64,000 nucleotides of DNA from Candidatus Deferrimicrobiaceae bacterium (GTDB taxonomy: Bacteria > Desulfobacterota > Deferrimicrobia > Deferrimicrobiales > Deferrimicrobiaceae). The DNA lies in NCBI GenBank assembly GCA_963792415.1, contig CAWBVY010000001.1, positions 32,001 through 96,000 on the forward strand. Reading direction: 5' to 3'. Below, piece by piece: positions 2,668-11,374 of the stretch (position 1 is its first letter; every line of letters begins with the position of its first letter). The notes below the pieces were generated by a model. That model was given only the letters and a program-made list of their open reading frames with translations. It did no database searches and was not told the origin of the DNA. The translations under genes were made by a program, and so were the position numbers.

Positions 2668-2777
2668 AGGCGAGCATTCTACCATTTCTTCGTTTGCCGG
2701 ATGCCCTCGGGGGCAAGGGGATGCAAGGAAAGGAAGCCCGCTCCCAACCGGCGGATGTCATCCGATAAACAAAATAG

Positions 2778-2795
2778 CGAAATATGATCATTTCG
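2778..2795. promoter_or_regulatory. Palindrome, candidate enhancer (UAS) for a sigma54 activator
   Basis: CGAAAT-N6-ATTTCG about 110-130 bp upstream of the -24 box, with another half-site TGCCGAAAT at 2847-2855. Confidence 0.4.
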
Positions 2796-2904
2796 GCAAA
2801 ATACTTCATGCATCCAGGCAGGCAAACCAGGGGCATCTTGGGGAGGTGCCGAAATTCATCAGGCAACACAAGGAGATGAACCCAATTCACTTTCCAACCT
2901 CCCT

Positions 2905-2920
2905 TGGCACGTTCCTTGAT
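2905..2920 (+). promoter_or_regulatory. Sigma54 (-24/-12) promoter
   Basis: TGGCACGTTCCTTGAT versus consensus TGGCACG-N4-TTGCW (GG-N10-GA variant), next to a sigma54 activator gene. Confidence 0.6.
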
Positions 2921-3001
2921 ATTTTCCAGATCAACAACAGGTCCGGAATCGGACGGGGAAACAAATCGCCAACGTTCCAGGGAAAGGAAAGGAGACCCGA
3001 C

Positions 3002-3241
3002 ATGAAGACGGGACAGGGCAACGGGGGCGCTTTTTCATGGAGTGGCATCTGCGAAATCTCGAGGGAGGCGAACAGCCTGTGCACCCTTCTCCCCGATGCA
3101 GGCCGCTGCACGAAAACGCATTTGGCGCACGTCGACTCCGTGCTGCCGGCCTCCCGGGTCCGCGGTTCAAGGAATGCCATCCGCGAGGCGGGTCACCAGG
3201 CGCCGGCCGGGGGGAACTCGTTCCCGTCCTTTGCGAAGTAA
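3002..3241 (+). CDS. Small hypothetical protein (79 aa, 3 Cys)
   Basis: AAGGAG RBS 7 nt before ATG, downstream of the sigma54 promoter. No recognisable domain. Confidence 0.45.
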   Translation: MKTGQGNGGAFSWSGICEISREANSLCTLLPDAGRCTKTHLAHVDSVLPASRVRGSRNAIREAGHQAPAGGNSFPSFAK

Positions 3242-3282
3242 ACCGGCCTGGCGGTCGGTACCGGTGAGGCGGTCGGGAACGC

Positions 3283-8400: not shown

Positions 8401-8754
8401 GCCCCCGTGGAGCACGTCCAGCCAGGAATCTTTTTCCTTCTCCGGCGCGGAGAAGACGACCTGCGTGTTCTGGTCGAGGCGAAGGGTGGTCTCGTTCATC
8501 AGGAGCAGGTCCACCCGGCTCCATTCCATCACCCGGAGGATGTCCCCCCGGCAAAATTGATCCTTGTGCCGGACCTCGATCCACGGTTCCGTTTTCCCGT
8601 GCTTCACCCGTACATCGCCCTGCACCGAAACGGCCACGGCAACCGACGGTTCGCACGATCCGGCCACGGCGTGACCGGAGGTGCACGACAGGGAAACCAC
8701 GACCACGATGAGCACTCCCAGGGCTGCCGGCAGACGCGTTTTCATCCTCGTCAT
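5432..8754 (-). CDS. Outer-membrane FecR-domain/TPR/TonB-receptor-like beta-barrel protein (one frameshift near 5625)
   Basis: Signal peptide, FecR-like region (GDILRV...TTLRLDQNT...VGTPFVNAGIEGTEF), multiple TPRs, then barrel strands (QFNPKLGVTW). The natural C-terminus QFWIFDASVGYRL...KNLFN...GRTVYFKVTISL* lies in the adjacent frame ending at TAG 5432-5434. Confidence 0.85.
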
Positions 8755-8796
8755 TTTGACCGCCTCCGATGGCGCGGGCCTTCACGCGGCCGGCGC

Positions 8797-11070
8797 CTAC
8801 TTTTTCTCAATGTGAACGACGCCATCCCAGGCATCGCCGGGGGGGTTCTTCAGATAGCGCACGCAAAGTCCGATGAAAAAGAGCGAGGGACCGTCGTCGT
8901 CCCGGAGCCCGAGCGTCTCGTGGAACTTGGCACTCGCCGCCTCCCAGGACTGCCGCCGGAACAGCTCCATCCCTTCCGCAAACGACGCGCAGCATTCCTT
9001 CTGCCGGGGGCTGGCCTCCGCCAGCAGACCCCCCAGCTCGTACACGTGCACCGGCCGGTTTTTCCCGGCGAGAAGGAACGACCCCAGATCCCTGGACAGG
9101 AAGATGTCCGCCATGGGAAGCACCTCCCGGGAGACCAGGATCCGGGTTCCCAGGTACTTGTTGAGCCCCTCGATCCGGGTCGCCGTGTTGACGATGTCCC
9201 CCACCGCCCGGTATTCGAAATGCTGGCCGGCGCCGATGTTCCCGATCCGGATCTCCCCCGCGTGCAGCCCGATTCGCGTGGGAAGCCCGATCACGTTGTG
9301 GGACTTCCGGAACTCCCGCATCGCGTTCGCGATCTCGATCGCGGCCAGGCAGGCTTCGCTCAAGGGGGCGGGGGCTTCGCTGGTGGCAAGCCACAGGGCC
9401 AGCATGGAATCCCCGACGACGTTCGAGACGATCCCCCCGTGGCGCCGCACGGGATCGAACACCGCCTCGTAATACCGGTTCATGAACCGTGCGAGGTCCT
9501 TCGGATCCATCGACTCGGACAGGGCGGTGTACTGTTCGGCATCCGTGGCGAGGCAGACCCCGTGCACAAGCTTTTCGCTTGTCTTCAGTCCCTCGAAGTT
9601 CTGCGCCAGCTCGTCCACGGCCCCCGCGGGGAGGTAGTAGGCGAAGGCCTTGCGGAAATTTTGCCGGTCCCGGCTCGCCTCCACGTAGTTCCAGGCAACG
9701 GAACCAAACAGGGCCAAGGGTCCCTGGACCAGGAGGGGGATGACGATGGGGTACCATGTGCCTCCCGACGAGAACCGTTGGACGGCCGCCGCGAGGTACA
9801 GGAGGGAAAAGGAGATGACCGCCGGAAAGGAGATGGCGGGGCGGAAAACCATGGAGAGGACTCCCGCCGCAATTCCCCACAGGAGGATGCCGGAGAAGTG
9901 CCAGCCGAATGGAAGCGGCCGGACCGGCAAGTCCTCGACCAGGTTCGCAAAGGACGTCGCCTGGATCTCCACGCCGCTCAGGTCTACACCGTTCTCTTTC
10001 GTATATACCGTGTAGAACCCGTCCTTCTGTGCGAGCTGGCGCGATTCCGAGGAGCCGACGAACACGGCCCTTCCCGCGACCTCCACCGCGGAAGGGCCTT
10101 GTCCACGCTTCCCGGTTCGGAGCACCTGGTGATACGGGAGGGTGGGAATCGTATGCGTGGGCCCGTAGAAATTCAGGAACTTCCGAACGCCGCCGCCGTA
10201 CAGACGAATCAGCGACCGCACAAGTCGGCGCTGCCCGGGGTCCGACGGCCGCATCGGGGAAGCGTCCAGCGCGGCCAGCATCCGTTGCTCCGCGGACGGA
10301 TCTTTCTTGAAGATTTCCCGTACGTCCCGGACCACTCCCTTGATCTGCCTCGAACGAACGATATCTTCCGCGGTCCGGGGGAGCACGTGTGCCTCGTCGG
10401 GAAACACCTCTTCCAGGAGCCGGAGGAATTCCGGGTAGACCTGGAGCGCATACAACTGGAACGCCACGACCGGCAGCGTGGGCGCAGGGGACTCCTCCGC
10501 AGTTGTCCGGAACGTCCAATCCGAGCATATCTTTACGGGAACCTTGGGAAGCGGATACGGCGCCGAGGCGGCGGCGGCATCGCCGAAAAGGGAGAACGGT
10601 GGAATTCTTTGCAATACCTCGATCTCGGCCCCTGGCCTGCCCGTTCGGCCTGACATGGTCACCCTCTCGGTCAGCAGGCGTTCGCACAACAGGACGTTGC
10701 CGGCTTTCCGCATCGCCGCGGCGAATGCCTGATCTCCCCCGAACTCCCCATCCTCCCCGGACTGTTCGAAAAAGAGATCGAACGCGATGACCGTCGCGCC
10801 GCGGTGCGCCAGGGTTTCCGTGAGGGCCGCATGCAGGGAGCGGGGCCATCTCTTTTCTTTCCCGGAAAGATCGAGCCTGTCGGACGATTCCTTGTCGATG
10901 CTGATGACGACAACTTCGGGGGGAGGCGTCCTGTGCCCCCGCAGACGGAAAAGGGTTTCGAGTCCGAGGTCTTCCTCGAGTTTCAGCCCGAAGGAGGTGC
11001 TGCTTGCGACGCTTCCCAAGATCCCGACCGCGATTCCCAACAATGCTCCCTTGGCACCGCGAGAGAACAT
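8797..11070 (-). CDS. CHASE2-domain membrane class III nucleotidyl cyclase
   Basis: N-terminal TM, CHASE2 motifs (VVVISIDKES, RWPRSLHA, VIAFDLFF, SGVEIQA), three TM helices, cyclase core (ATDAEQYT, VGDS, RIGLHAG, VGDIVNTATRIE, LAGK), C-terminal WDGV tail. Confidence 0.93.
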   Translation of the reverse strand: MFSRGAKGALLGIAVGILGSVASSTSFGLKLEEDLGLETLFRLRGHRTPPPEVVVISIDKESSDRLDLSGKEKRWPRSLHAALTETLAHRGATVIAFDLFFEQSGEDGEFGGDQAFAAAMRKAGNVLLCERLLTERVTMSGRTGRPGAEIEVLQRIPPFSLFGDAAAASAPYPLPKVPVKICSDWTFRTTAEESPAPTLPVVAFQLYALQVYPEFLRLLEEVFPDEAHVLPRTAEDIVRSRQIKGVVRDVREIFKKDPSAEQRMLAALDASPMRPSDPGQRRLVRSLIRLYGGGVRKFLNFYGPTHTIPTLPYHQVLRTGKRGQGPSAVEVAGRAVFVGSSESRQLAQKDGFYTVYTKENGVDLSGVEIQATSFANLVEDLPVRPLPFGWHFSGILLWGIAAGVLSMVFRPAISFPAVISFSLLYLAAAVQRFSSGGTWYPIVIPLLVQGPLALFGSVAWNYVEASRDRQNFRKAFAYYLPAGAVDELAQNFEGLKTSEKLVHGVCLATDAEQYTALSESMDPKDLARFMNRYYEAVFDPVRRHGGIVSNVVGDSMLALWLATSEAPAPLSEACLAAIEIANAMREFRKSHNVIGLPTRIGLHAGEIRIGNIGAGQHFEYRAVGDIVNTATRIEGLNKYLGTRILVSREVLPMADIFLSRDLGSFLLAGKNRPVHVYELGGLLAEASPRQKECCASFAEGMELFRRQSWEAASAKFHETLGLRDDDGPSLFFIGLCVRYLKNPPGDAWDGVVHIEKK

Positions 11071-11321
11071 GGTCAGTCCCCGGACGATTCGGGTAGCTCG
11101 ATGAAGTGCCGGCCGCCGCGGAATACACGTCCGCCCACAAAAGGGATGGAGACTCTCCCAAAGCGAAAGTCCTTCCCTTCCGAATGTATCTTACGAAAAC
11201 GAAAGTGACAGATCGAGTACGCTTAACGAGTTCAGTTCGCCATCTAGCAACGTCGAACCGACGGAAAGGAGACGGTGGAGGAATCCCAAGGAAGAAGTTC
11301 CATTCCTGCCCGTCTTCTGGA

Positions 11322-11350
11322 ATTAGAGAATATCGGGCCCTGAATGTCAA
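11322..11350 (-). promoter_or_regulatory. Putative sigma70 promoter of the cyclase operon
   Basis: TTGACA-N17-TCTAAT just downstream of the ruvC stop. Confidence 0.4.
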
Positions 11351-11374
11351 CCGCGCTTTATTCCAGGCAACGCC

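What the first reader, a model, noticed from the sequence alone, without database searches (positions are those of the whole stretch)
2690..11370. Candidate self-contained trans-envelope signalling circuit inserted between ruvC and ruvA
Seen: the normally adjacent ruvC and ruvA are separated by about 8.7 kb. It carries, co-directionally, a CHASE2 class III cyclase, a FecR-TPR-beta-barrel protein, a small secreted protein and a GAF-sigma54 activator, and then a convergent sigma54 promoter with a palindrome and an orphan ORF. Known: a CHASE2 cyclase paired with a FecR/TPR/barrel protein resembles Sinorhizobium meliloti CyaK-NsrA, where output runs through a CRP-like protein (Clr), and some GAF domains bind cyclic nucleotides. 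Inference: here no CRP-like gene is present, so the path may be extracellular ligand -> barrel -> FecR/CHASE2 contact -> cyclic nucleotide -> GAF-bEBP -> sigma54 target. I do not know of this wiring being described.
Basis: partly seen in the sequence, partly recalled or inferred. Interest (0 to 1): 0.8.

Follow-up and report, generated by a model that had tools for sequence, protein, structure and literature searches.

The report
Envelope cyclase module beside unrelated sigma-54 switch
The DNA between ruvC and ruvA holds a known kind of outer-membrane-to-cyclic-nucleotide sensor, partly broken here, next to a sigma-54 gene switch that elsewhere nearly always occurs without it, so the proposed single circuit is unproven and probably two separate units.

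Summary
Three need correction. The barrel gene has a 1-base frameshift that only this assembly carries. The "small secreted protein" is a fragment of a decayed gene of about 125-150 aa. The orphan ORF shows no coding constraint.

The CHASE2 cyclase plus FecR-TPR-barrel pair is an NsrA/CyaK-type module. This scan has noted that kind 81 times.

The GAF-sigma54 activator, its upstream palindrome and its convergent sigma-54 promoter form a separate cassette.
- Only 1 of 80 orthologous activator loci has the pair within 10 kb, and that one is a near relative.
- The same promoter arrangement occurs in loci without any cyclase.
- From the other side, 3 of 80 barrel loci carry any sigma-54 activator. 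Pfam finds class II phosphodiesterases in 10 and cNMP-binding proteins in 9.
- This genome's second pair sits beside cNMP-binding effectors, and a Crp-like gene exists elsewhere.

Even so, the GAF domain's nearest solved sequence relatives are cNMP-binding GAFs, and adjacency recurs rarely (L133, L036). I put a direct cNMP-to-activator link at about 0.2.

The parts
2056..2685 (-). ruvA, the lower flank of the insert
   Evidence: RuvA_N, HHH_5 and RuvA_C
2780..2793 (+). Palindromic element (core ATGATCAT at 2784-2791), about 115-120 nt upstream of the -24 GG. Candidate binding site for the activator.
   Evidence: Read. An ATATG-N3-4-CAT-like block at the same distance is kept in G002, L033, L037, L039 and L040. 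Its function is inferred.
2905..2920 (+). Sigma-54-type promoter TGGCAC-N5-TTGAT, convergent with the activator gene
   Evidence: The only match in 64 kb, with 0.03 expected. Kept in G011 and G002 and in L037, L039 and L040, which lack a cyclase.
3002..3241 (+). orf79, a short open frame (or the body of a non-coding transcript) downstream of the sigma-54 promoter
   Evidence: Open and free of indels in 3 genomes at 65-66% amino-acid identity. dN/dS is 0.73-0.85, as in shifted frames. No Pfam, NCBIfam or Rfam match.
3283..4827 (-). GAF-AAA+-HTH sigma-54 activator, 514 aa: GAF 4267-4827, AAA+ 3766-4266, HTH_8 3304-3414
   Evidence: Pfam. GAF. dN/dS 0.37. Below every NCBIfam equivalog cut-off.
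4830..5296 (-). Decayed small partner gene. Its first fragment (5135-5296, 53 aa) keeps the membrane or signal segment; later parts lie in two other frames.
   Evidence: tblastn with the 148-aa L023 homologue gives three pieces in three frames. G002 also has stops and G011 is intact. The stretch is rich in indels between populations.
5432..8754 (-). FecR-TPR-beta-barrel outer-membrane protein (NsrA type), with one base missing after 5621. FecR domain at 8266-8526.
   Evidence: Pfam. Relatives are intact at 1105-1106 aa. Frameshift.
8797..11070 (-). CHASE2 class III nucleotidyl cyclase, 757 aa: CHASE2 9862-10977, catalytic domain 9061-9546
   Evidence: Pfam. D510, D554, N628 and R632 are invariant in 25 homologues.
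11375..11875 (-). ruvC, the upper flank of the insert
   Evidence: RuvC 8.1e-35

Best explanation
The 8.7-kb insert is two units that happen to lie side by side.

Unit 1 is an NsrA/CyaK-type envelope sensor with three parts:
- an outer-membrane FecR-TPR-barrel protein;
- an inner-membrane CHASE2 cyclase whose catalytic residues are intact but whose substrate-specifying positions are unusual;
- a small Cys/Trp-tailed partner protein.
It turns an envelope or outside cue into a cyclic nucleotide. That nucleotide is read by ordinary cNMP-binding-domain proteins encoded elsewhere in the genome. In this assembly the barrel gene is frameshifted and the small partner gene has decayed, so the unit may be impaired.

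Unit 2 is a GAF-AAA+-HTH sigma-54 activator. Its GAF domain senses a still unknown small ligand. It binds an upstream palindrome and fires a convergent sigma-54 promoter that drives a short transcript (orf79 or a non-coding RNA).

Shown: the domains, the conservation patterns and the broken frames. Inferred: the signal flow, the activator's binding site and the activator's ligand.
For: - The pair is conserved on its own: 51 of 80 barrel loci have the cyclase directly upstream.
- The activator cassette is conserved on its own. 79 of 80 ortholog loci have no cyclase or barrel at tblastn E<=1e-4 within up to 10 kb. Convergent sigma-54 promoters stand in L037, L039 and L040, which lack any cyclase. 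That makes 4 of the 6 scanned loci among the closest orthologs, L033-L041, and the upstream block is shared.
- In the genus, the activator's GAF domain was found in 3 of 25 genomes (G000, G002, G011).
- The genome's second pair is followed, in the same direction, by an MscS channel with a cNMP-binding domain. A class II phosphodiesterase and an oxidoreductase with a cNMP-binding domain lie next to it.
- A Crp-like protein is encoded at C4:705923-706571.
- Pfam on 261 ORFs next to the 80 barrel loci found PDEase_II in 10 loci, cNMP_binding in 9 (3 of them Crp-like) and Sigma54_activat in 3.
- The activator is under purifying selection (dN/dS 0.37), while the small partner gene is broken in G000 and G002.
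Against: - The profile of the GAF domain hits cNMP-binding GAFs best among solved sequences: PDE5 GAF-A 1.8e-7, PDE2A 2.9e-6, Lcd1 1.4e-4, PDE10A 3.2e-4. It hits no Nlh1, NifA or DevS.
- An ortholog of the activator (47% identity) lies 680 nt downstream of a distant pair in L133.
- L036 has a BTAD protein and a class II phosphodiesterase just upstream of an ortholog.
- BTAD-STAND proteins neighbour 7 of 80 barrel loci and 4 of 80 activator loci.
- A different GAF activator sits directly upstream of the pair in L190.
- Earlier scan notes report GAF activators beside CHASE2 cyclases in spirochaetes (unchecked).
- Many loci in both surveys have short flanks, so absences are undercounted.
Confidence: 0.6

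Rival explanations
1. The cyclase's product binds the activator's GAF domain, which then turns on the sigma-54 promoter at 2905. That would be a cNMP receptor of a kind not yet described.
For: - The nearest solved sequence relatives of the GAF domain are cNMP-binding GAFs. Foldseek ranks PDE2A first and the cAMP-bound Lcd1 GAF second (TM 0.71/0.76).
- In the paralogous locus, the position downstream of the barrel is held by a cNMP-binding effector.
- Adjacency recurs in L133 and L036, and with another GAF activator in L190.
- Earlier scan notes describe the same pairing in spirochaetes (unchecked).
- Two searches for a cNMP-sensing GAF activator returned 4 and 3 papers. I saw only titles and abstract openings, and none is about one.
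Against: - Only 1 of 80 activator loci and 3 of 80 barrel loci show the pairing.
- With 22 activator-like loci in 2.8 Mb, a few chance neighbours are expected; this estimate is my inference.
- PDE GAFs as top hits are partly generic. The L190 GAF hits them at 9e-15 and also hits DevS, Nlh1 and NifA.
- The positions that align to the N-K of the NKFDE motif (a motif I recall, not taken from a call) are mostly P/R/K-S.
- The closest orthologs outside the island (68-77% identity) sit in an ankyrin / formamidase / cyanase setting with no cNMP genes.
Confidence: 0.2
2. The island is a decaying remnant in this lineage. The sensor no longer works, and only the cyclase, the activator and the ruv genes are maintained.
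For: The barrel is frameshifted about 70 codons before its end. The small partner gene is broken in G000 and G002. 11 indel differences between populations fall in 4842-5400, against one in the barrel part that was laid.
Against: Contigs of 4 of 4 public runs carry the intact barrel frame at 5621, and G002 and G011 have intact barrels, so the frameshift may be an assembly error. The cyclase's catalytic residues are intact.
Confidence: 0.15
3. The convergent sigma-54 transcript acts on the activator gene or the island itself, as an antisense or regulatory RNA, rather than encoding a protein.
For: - orf79 shows no coding constraint.
- The ORFs downstream of the same promoter in L037 and L039 are unrelated to orf79.
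- Only the promoter, the leader and the start region are strongly conserved.
- The ORF ends 42 nt from the activator's stop codon, and no terminator-like site was found between them.
Against: No Rfam match. The ribosome-binding site, the ATG and the open frame are kept in three genomes. No transcript data were obtained.
Confidence: 0.05

Closest known systems
NsrA - CyaK/CyaD1/CyaD2 - Clr pathway of Sinorhizobium meliloti
   Same: An outer-membrane protein of about 1,100-1,200 aa with a C-terminal barrel, working with inner-membrane CHASE2 class III cyclases (passages of PMC7529298 and PMC13001267). Here the pair is adjacent and conserved.
   Different: There, output goes through the Crp-like Clr. 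Here no Crp gene is local, the cyclase's substrate-specifying positions are non-canonical, and a small Cys/Trp-tailed partner gene follows the barrel gene. Sequence homology to NsrA and CyaK themselves was not tested. Garnerone 2018 is not held, so I know it only through other papers' citations.
Lcd1 of Leptospira interrogans (PDB 5W10) and GacB of Myxococcus xanthus: cAMP-activated GAF-GGDEF enzymes
   Same: A bacterial GAF domain that reads cAMP (passages of 10.1101/600031 and PMC11800159). The Lcd1 GAF is Foldseek rank 2 for the model.
   Different: Their output domain is a GGDEF cyclase, not a sigma-54 AAA+ activator. Binding is shown for them and is untested here.
GAF-regulated sigma-54 activators: Nlh1/Nlh2 of Aquifex, NifA, NorR, FhlA
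   Same: The GAF-AAA+-HTH architecture with a GAFTGA loop. The Nlh2 GAF is Foldseek rank 7.
   Different: The protein scores below every NCBIfam equivalog cut-off (nifA 319.6 against 528.85; NorR 312.7 against 476). The GAF profile does not hit Nlh1 or NifA sequences in the PDB at E<=10.
Burkholderia 'BiofilmReg' operon: response regulator, LysM-FecR protein, CHASE2 histidine kinase
   Same: A periplasmic FecR-domain protein encoded next to a CHASE2 sensor (passages of PMC5192318).
   Different: There the output is a histidine kinase and response regulator, and the FecR protein has LysM rather than TPR plus barrel.

Membership tests
NsrA/CyaK-type outer-membrane receptor plus CHASE2 cyclase module | An inner-membrane protein with a periplasmic CHASE2 domain and a class III cyclase domain | tested here: met
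   CHASE2 8.2e-28 and Guanylate_cyc 1.1e-10. The metal-binding Asp residues, Asn and Arg are invariant in 25 sequences.
NsrA/CyaK-type outer-membrane receptor plus CHASE2 cyclase module | A secreted protein of about 1,100-1,200 aa with a FecR/TPR N-terminal half and a beta-barrel C-terminal half | tested here: inconclusive
   FecR 5e-17 and many TPR matches are solid. The barrel rests on sub-threshold matches (TonB_dep_Rec_b-barrel 1.4e-4; OMP_b-brl_3 in the paralogue). No structure was predicted for it. The gene is frameshifted in this assembly.
NsrA/CyaK-type outer-membrane receptor plus CHASE2 cyclase module | The receptor and cyclase genes are conserved as a pair | tested here: met
   51 of 80 barrel loci have the cyclase directly upstream. 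22 of the other 29 have under 2.4 kb of upstream flank.
NsrA/CyaK-type outer-membrane receptor plus CHASE2 cyclase module | Output through a Crp-like cNMP-binding regulator (Clr) | tested here: not met
   None lies in the insert. A Crp-like gene exists elsewhere in the genome. Crp-like genes are adjacent in 3 of 80 barrel loci.
NsrA/CyaK-type outer-membrane receptor plus CHASE2 cyclase module | Sequence homology to S. meliloti NsrA and CyaK, and signal-dependent cAMP synthesis that needs the receptor | not tested
The biochemistry is not testable with these tools.
Sigma-54 bacterial enhancer-binding protein | Sigma54_activat AAA+ domain with a GAFTGA loop and a C-terminal Fis-type HTH | tested here: met
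   1.6e-66 and HTH_8 2.4e-6. GAFTGA can be read in the translation.
Sigma-54 bacterial enhancer-binding protein | Sigma-54 is present in the genome and a -24/-12 promoter lies nearby | tested here: inconclusive
   The promoter is met. rpoN was not found in the readable genome, of which 72 kb are withheld. 11 of 12 genus relatives have it, and the genome has 22 activator-like loci.
cNMP-binding GAF domains (PDE2/5/6/10, CyaB2, Lcd1) | GAF fold | tested here: met
   AlphaFold2 model with pLDDT 77.7. 304 PDB matches at E<=0.001, all listed ones GAF domains.
cNMP-binding GAF domains (PDE2/5/6/10, CyaB2, Lcd1) | Closer in sequence to cNMP-binding GAFs than to other GAFs | tested here: inconclusive
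   The top PDB hits are PDE5, PDE2A, Lcd1 and PDE10A. The control GAF from L190 shows the same top hits plus DevS, Nlh1 and NifA.
cNMP-binding GAF domains (PDE2/5/6/10, CyaB2, Lcd1) | NKFDE signature (recalled from the literature, not from a call) | tested here: not met
   The positions aligned to N-K are P/R/K-S in 11 of 11 sequences. An F..EV[ED] stretch is kept.
cNMP-binding GAF domains (PDE2/5/6/10, CyaB2, Lcd1) | Binds cAMP or cGMP | not testable with these tools
   Needs ITC, DRaCALA or a thermal-shift assay.
NifA / NorR / FhlA / PrdR equivalogs | Score over the NCBIfam equivalog cut-off | tested here: not met
   The best match, nifA, scores 319.6 against 528.85. All 25 listed matches are below cut-off.

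The most novel reading that the evidence does not exclude
This family of GAF-AAA+-HTH activators is a direct cyclic-nucleotide receptor, so that an outer-membrane cue is relayed by a CHASE2 cyclase to sigma-54 transcription without any Crp-type protein. The GAF family, widespread in Desulfobacterota-like lineages, would then be a new class of cNMP-responsive transcription factor.
Probability: 0.2. Interest if true: 0.65.

Novelty: new member of a known kind. Interest (0 to 1): 0.35.

Why it matters
As it stands, this is one more NsrA/CyaK-type envelope sensor, a kind this scan has met many times. It sits at an unusual place, splitting ruvC from ruvA, next to an ordinary-looking sigma-54 cassette.

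Three things could be of use:
- The survey shows which genes really travel with such sensors: class II phosphodiesterases, cNMP-binding effectors, BTAD-STAND proteins and a small Cys/Trp-tailed partner.
- A well-conserved GAF activator family of unknown ligand has been marked out, with its promoter and its likely binding site.
- There is a cheap, decisive experiment, cNMP binding to the GAF domain. If positive, it would add sigma-54 activators to the known cyclic-nucleotide receptors.

Tried and rejected
- Complex prediction of the FecR domain (barrel residues 32-215) with the CHASE2 domain (cyclase residues 29-390), each with an alignment, gave no verdict (score 0.00 in both runs; controls not run). 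It says nothing either way.
- Rfam search of 2600-5500: no match at E<=1.
- Terminator and sigma-70 scan of 2600-5600: at shuffle level, so operon boundaries remain unresolved.
- Flanking direct repeats that would mark a mobile insertion: none convincing.
- Sequencing runs: no run held half of the sampled words (best 0.45).
- A NorR-like metal site in the GAF domain (invariant Cys and Asp): this was only a recollection and I could not test it. The NorR model matches from residue 165 onward, that is, not the GAF domain. Dropped.
- orf79 as a relative of the ORFs downstream of the same promoter in L037 and L039: no similarity seen.
- FAD-oxidoreductase next to the activator ortholog in L042: it lacks the cNMP-binding domain, so it is not counted as a cNMP link.
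- Garnerone 2018 (NsrA) could not be read.
- Earlier notes by place and by the GAF sequence: nothing.

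
Full report
WHAT IS THERE

All genes of the region lie on the minus strand: ruvB (991-2052), ruvA (2056-2685), a 514-aa sigma-54 activator (3283-4827), a FecR-TPR-barrel gene (5432-8754), a CHASE2 class III cyclase (8797-11070), ruvC (11375-11875) and yebC. 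ruvA and ruvC are 8,689 nt apart. In 11 of 11 other loci fetched from the same genus, yebC-ruvC-ruvA-ruvB are contiguous. One of those loci is a second ruvC locus of G011, which therefore holds both states. No flanking repeats mark a mobile insertion.

Between ruvA and the activator's stop codon lies TGGCACGTTCCTTGAT at 2905-2920 (+). It is the only match to TGGCAYN5TTGMW in the 64 kb, with 0.03 expected. It is followed by an AGGAG ribosome-binding site and a 79-codon ORF (3002-3241). It is preceded by the palindrome ATGATCAT at 2784-2791.

CORRECTIONS TO THE OBSERVATION

- Barrel gene. The long ORF runs into an out-of-frame tail, and the true C-terminus lies in another frame. Alignment with G011 and G002 shows one base missing. 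Their genes are intact at 1105-1106 aa. Contigs of four public runs from four studies, laid on 4700-5900, all carry an extra G after 5621. The frameshift is therefore private to this assembly: an error or a recent mutation.
- Small gene. The 53-aa "small secreted protein" is the N-terminal fragment of a conserved gene of about 125-150 aa that ends in a Cys/Trp-rich tail. It is intact in L023, L126, L116 and G011. In the window its parts lie in three frames, and in G002 it carries stops. Eleven indel differences between populations fall in 4842-5400, against one in the barrel part that was laid.
- orf79. It stays open and free of indels in three genomes, but its dN/dS is 0.73-0.85, the same as in shifted frames. 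The activator gives 0.37.
- rpoN. It was not found in the readable genome, of which 72 kb are withheld. 11 of 12 genus relatives have it, and the genome has 22 activator-like loci. Sigma-54 is therefore very probably present.

UNIT 1: THE CYCLASE-BARREL PAIR

Its architecture matches what the papers say of S. meliloti NsrA (barrel in residues 600-1200) and the CHASE2 cyclases CyaK/CyaD1/D2, whose cAMP is read by Clr (passages of PMC7529298 and PMC13001267).

51 of these have a CHASE2 cyclase directly upstream, and 22 of the other 29 have under 2.4 kb of upstream flank.

In 25 cyclases the two metal-binding Asp residues, Asn628 and Arg632 are invariant. The position of the substrate-specifying Lys holds N, D or G, and that of the Asp holds R, S or T (the assignment of these positions is from my own knowledge). 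The product is therefore unknown.

The same ruvC ... cyclase-barrel ... ruvA placement occurs in metagenome contigs with cyclases 60-81% identical: ruvC upstream in 7 contigs and ruvA downstream in 4. There, the gene after the barrel is a protein of about 1,075 aa with AAA_16, TPR and BTAD domains, often followed by a class II phosphodiesterase, and not a sigma-54 activator.

The genome has a second pair at C1:202112-207781. Two short contigs (C2, C3) are 98-99.6% identical to its flank but only 85-93% identical over the pair, so they are probably strain variants. That second pair is followed, in the same direction, by an MscS-type channel with a cNMP-binding domain. Next come a class II phosphodiesterase and an oxidoreductase with a cNMP-binding domain.

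The genome holds 9 cNMP_binding matches. One of them is a Crp-like protein (cNMP_binding plus HTH_Crp_2) at the end of contig C4.

WHAT TRAVELS WITH THE PAIR

Pfam was run on 261 neighbouring ORFs of the 80 barrel loci. Only 21 loci have more than 3 kb upstream of the pair and 28 have more than 3 kb downstream. Results:

| Neighbour | Loci of 80 |
|---|---|
| PDEase_II (two more partial by tblastn) | 10 |
| cNMP_binding (3 of them Crp-like: L131, L135, L178) | 9 |
| BTAD-STAND proteins | 7 |
| GAF kinases, phosphatases or GGDEF proteins | 4 |
| Sigma54_activat | 3 |

The three Sigma54_activat loci are:
- L133, an ortholog of our activator, convergent with the barrel and 680 nt downstream of it;
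- L190, a different GAF activator directly upstream of the pair;
- L151, a PAS-domain activator.

With 22 activators per 2.8 Mb, a few chance neighbours are expected; this is my rough inference.

UNIT 2: THE ACTIVATOR CASSETTE

The N-terminal 187 residues have no Pfam hit at E 0.01. They nevertheless define a well-conserved family. 328 proteins match at E<=1e-3, about 510-520 aa long, and many are annotated PF13185/PF01590. Named sources include Deferrimicrobiaceae, Syntrophobacteraceae and Desulfobacteraceae.

A scan of one genome per species with a GAF-only alignment (A3) found 174 relatives, and the best 80 were kept, at 47-84% identity. Only L033, which is G011 itself, has the cyclase or barrel within up to 10 kb. 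In the genus sample the domain was found in 3 of 25 genomes.

Of the six scanned loci among the closest orthologs (L033-L041), four carry a convergent sigma-54 promoter 285-495 nt beyond the activator's stop. These are L033, L037, L039 and L040, and the last three have no cyclase. Over all 71 scanned loci the strict pattern was found convergent in 6. An ATATG-N3-4-CAT block lies at the same distance upstream in all of them. The ORFs downstream of the promoter are unrelated between lineages.

The closest orthologs outside the island (68-77%) sit among genes for an ankyrin-repeat protein, formamidase, cyanase and a type III polyketide synthase. Syntrophobacteraceae-type loci share two unnamed proteins downstream, in 32 and 24 of the 80 loci.

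The activator, its enhancer-like site and its promoter are therefore a unit of their own.

- The A3 profile hits PDE5 GAF-A (1.8e-7), PDE2A GAF-B (2.9e-6), an HD-GYP GAF, Lcd1 (1.4e-4) and PDE10A (3.2e-4) among 177,635 solved sequences. It hits no Nlh1, NifA or DevS.
- The AlphaFold2 model (pLDDT 77.7) is a GAF fold. Foldseek ranks PDE2A first and the cAMP-bound Lcd1 GAF second.
- As a control, the GAF of the L190 activator hits the same PDE GAFs even better, and also hits DevS, Nlh1 and NifA. The PDE preference is therefore partly generic.
- The positions aligned to the N-K of the NKFDE signature (a motif I recall) are not conserved.
- On the gene-neighbourhood side, L133 pairs an ortholog with a distant cyclase-barrel pair. 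L036 has the C-terminal end of a BTAD protein and a class II phosphodiesterase just upstream of an ortholog. L043, L045 and L066 have BTAD-STAND proteins beside orthologs.
- Two earlier scan notes report GAF activators next to CHASE2 cyclases in spirochaetes (not checked by me).
- Two literature searches for a cNMP-sensing GAF activator returned 4 and 3 papers. I saw only titles and abstract openings, and none is about one.

VERDICT

The genome has ordinary cNMP receptors, and the activator carries its own target. The best reading is two units side by side (0.6). The direct cNMP-to-activator link stays possible (0.2), and one binding assay would test it. The module is a further member of the NsrA/CyaK kind, which this scan has noted 81 times in at least 73 genomes.

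Noticed in passing
G000 contigs C2 and C3 (L031, L032) against C1:193000-212900 (L030): Two short contigs are 98-99.6% identical to the flank of the second cyclase-barrel locus but only 85-93% identical over the pair itself. C3 is full of stops. This looks like strain variants with a fast-evolving barrel, assembled as separate contigs.
   Followed up: partly
L116:6904-10155, L118:7351-10578, L120:5558-8785, L121:8689-11910, L139:3978-7217, L148:467-3784, L156:2518-5781; also L043:693-3938, L045, L066:13339-16680, L036:139-435: Proteins of about 1,080 aa with a MalT-like AAA_16 NTPase, TPR and BTAD domains and no recognised DNA-binding domain. They neighbour 7 of 80 barrel loci and 4 of 80 activator-ortholog loci. 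L116 and L043 are 33% identical over their full length.
   Followed up: partly
L190:777-2396 (+) and L190:2610-8377: A different GAF-sigma54 activator (GAF 2e-17) sits 214 nt upstream of a cyclase-barrel pair and points the same way. It is a cleaner candidate for cNMP-to-sigma-54 wiring than the window's.
   Followed up: partly
L146, L157, L159, L177 (upstream of the barrel gene): These barrel genes are preceded by partner-switching genes (HATPase_c_2 and STAS), a small cNMP-binding protein and a soluble cyclase, not by a CHASE2 cyclase. L177 has a CHASE2-SpoIIE phosphatase downstream.
   Followed up: no
L133:5914-6240 region (+), and L133:8358 (+): A small secreted Cys-containing protein is encoded between the barrel and the convergent activator ortholog. 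A consensus sigma-54 promoter, TGGCACAATCATTGCT, diverges from that activator.
   Followed up: partly
G011:C8:42614-43087 and G011:C21:8778-9251: G011 has two ruvC loci, one with the island and one with ruvC-ruvA adjacent. It is probably a mixed bin.
   Followed up: no
G000:C6:792001-864000: A 72-kb withheld block. rpoN and its flanks from a genus relative match nothing in the readable genome, so rpoN may lie in this block.
   Followed up: partly
L093:11536-12045 and L090:12099-12719 (representatives): Two unnamed proteins (about 169 and 206 aa, no Pfam match) follow the activator orthologs, in the same direction, in 32 and 24 of 80 loci. They may be the conserved targets in Syntrophobacteraceae-type genomes.
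   Followed up: no
L145:14780-15349 (-): A Pycsar effector domain protein (PycTM 1.6e-19) lies about 5.8 kb downstream of a cyclase-barrel pair.
   Followed up: no
window 11320-11350 (-): A TTGACA hexamer followed by an AT-rich stretch lies just downstream of ruvC, ahead of the cyclase gene. It may be the island's own sigma-70 promoter (read; not scanned).
   Followed up: no
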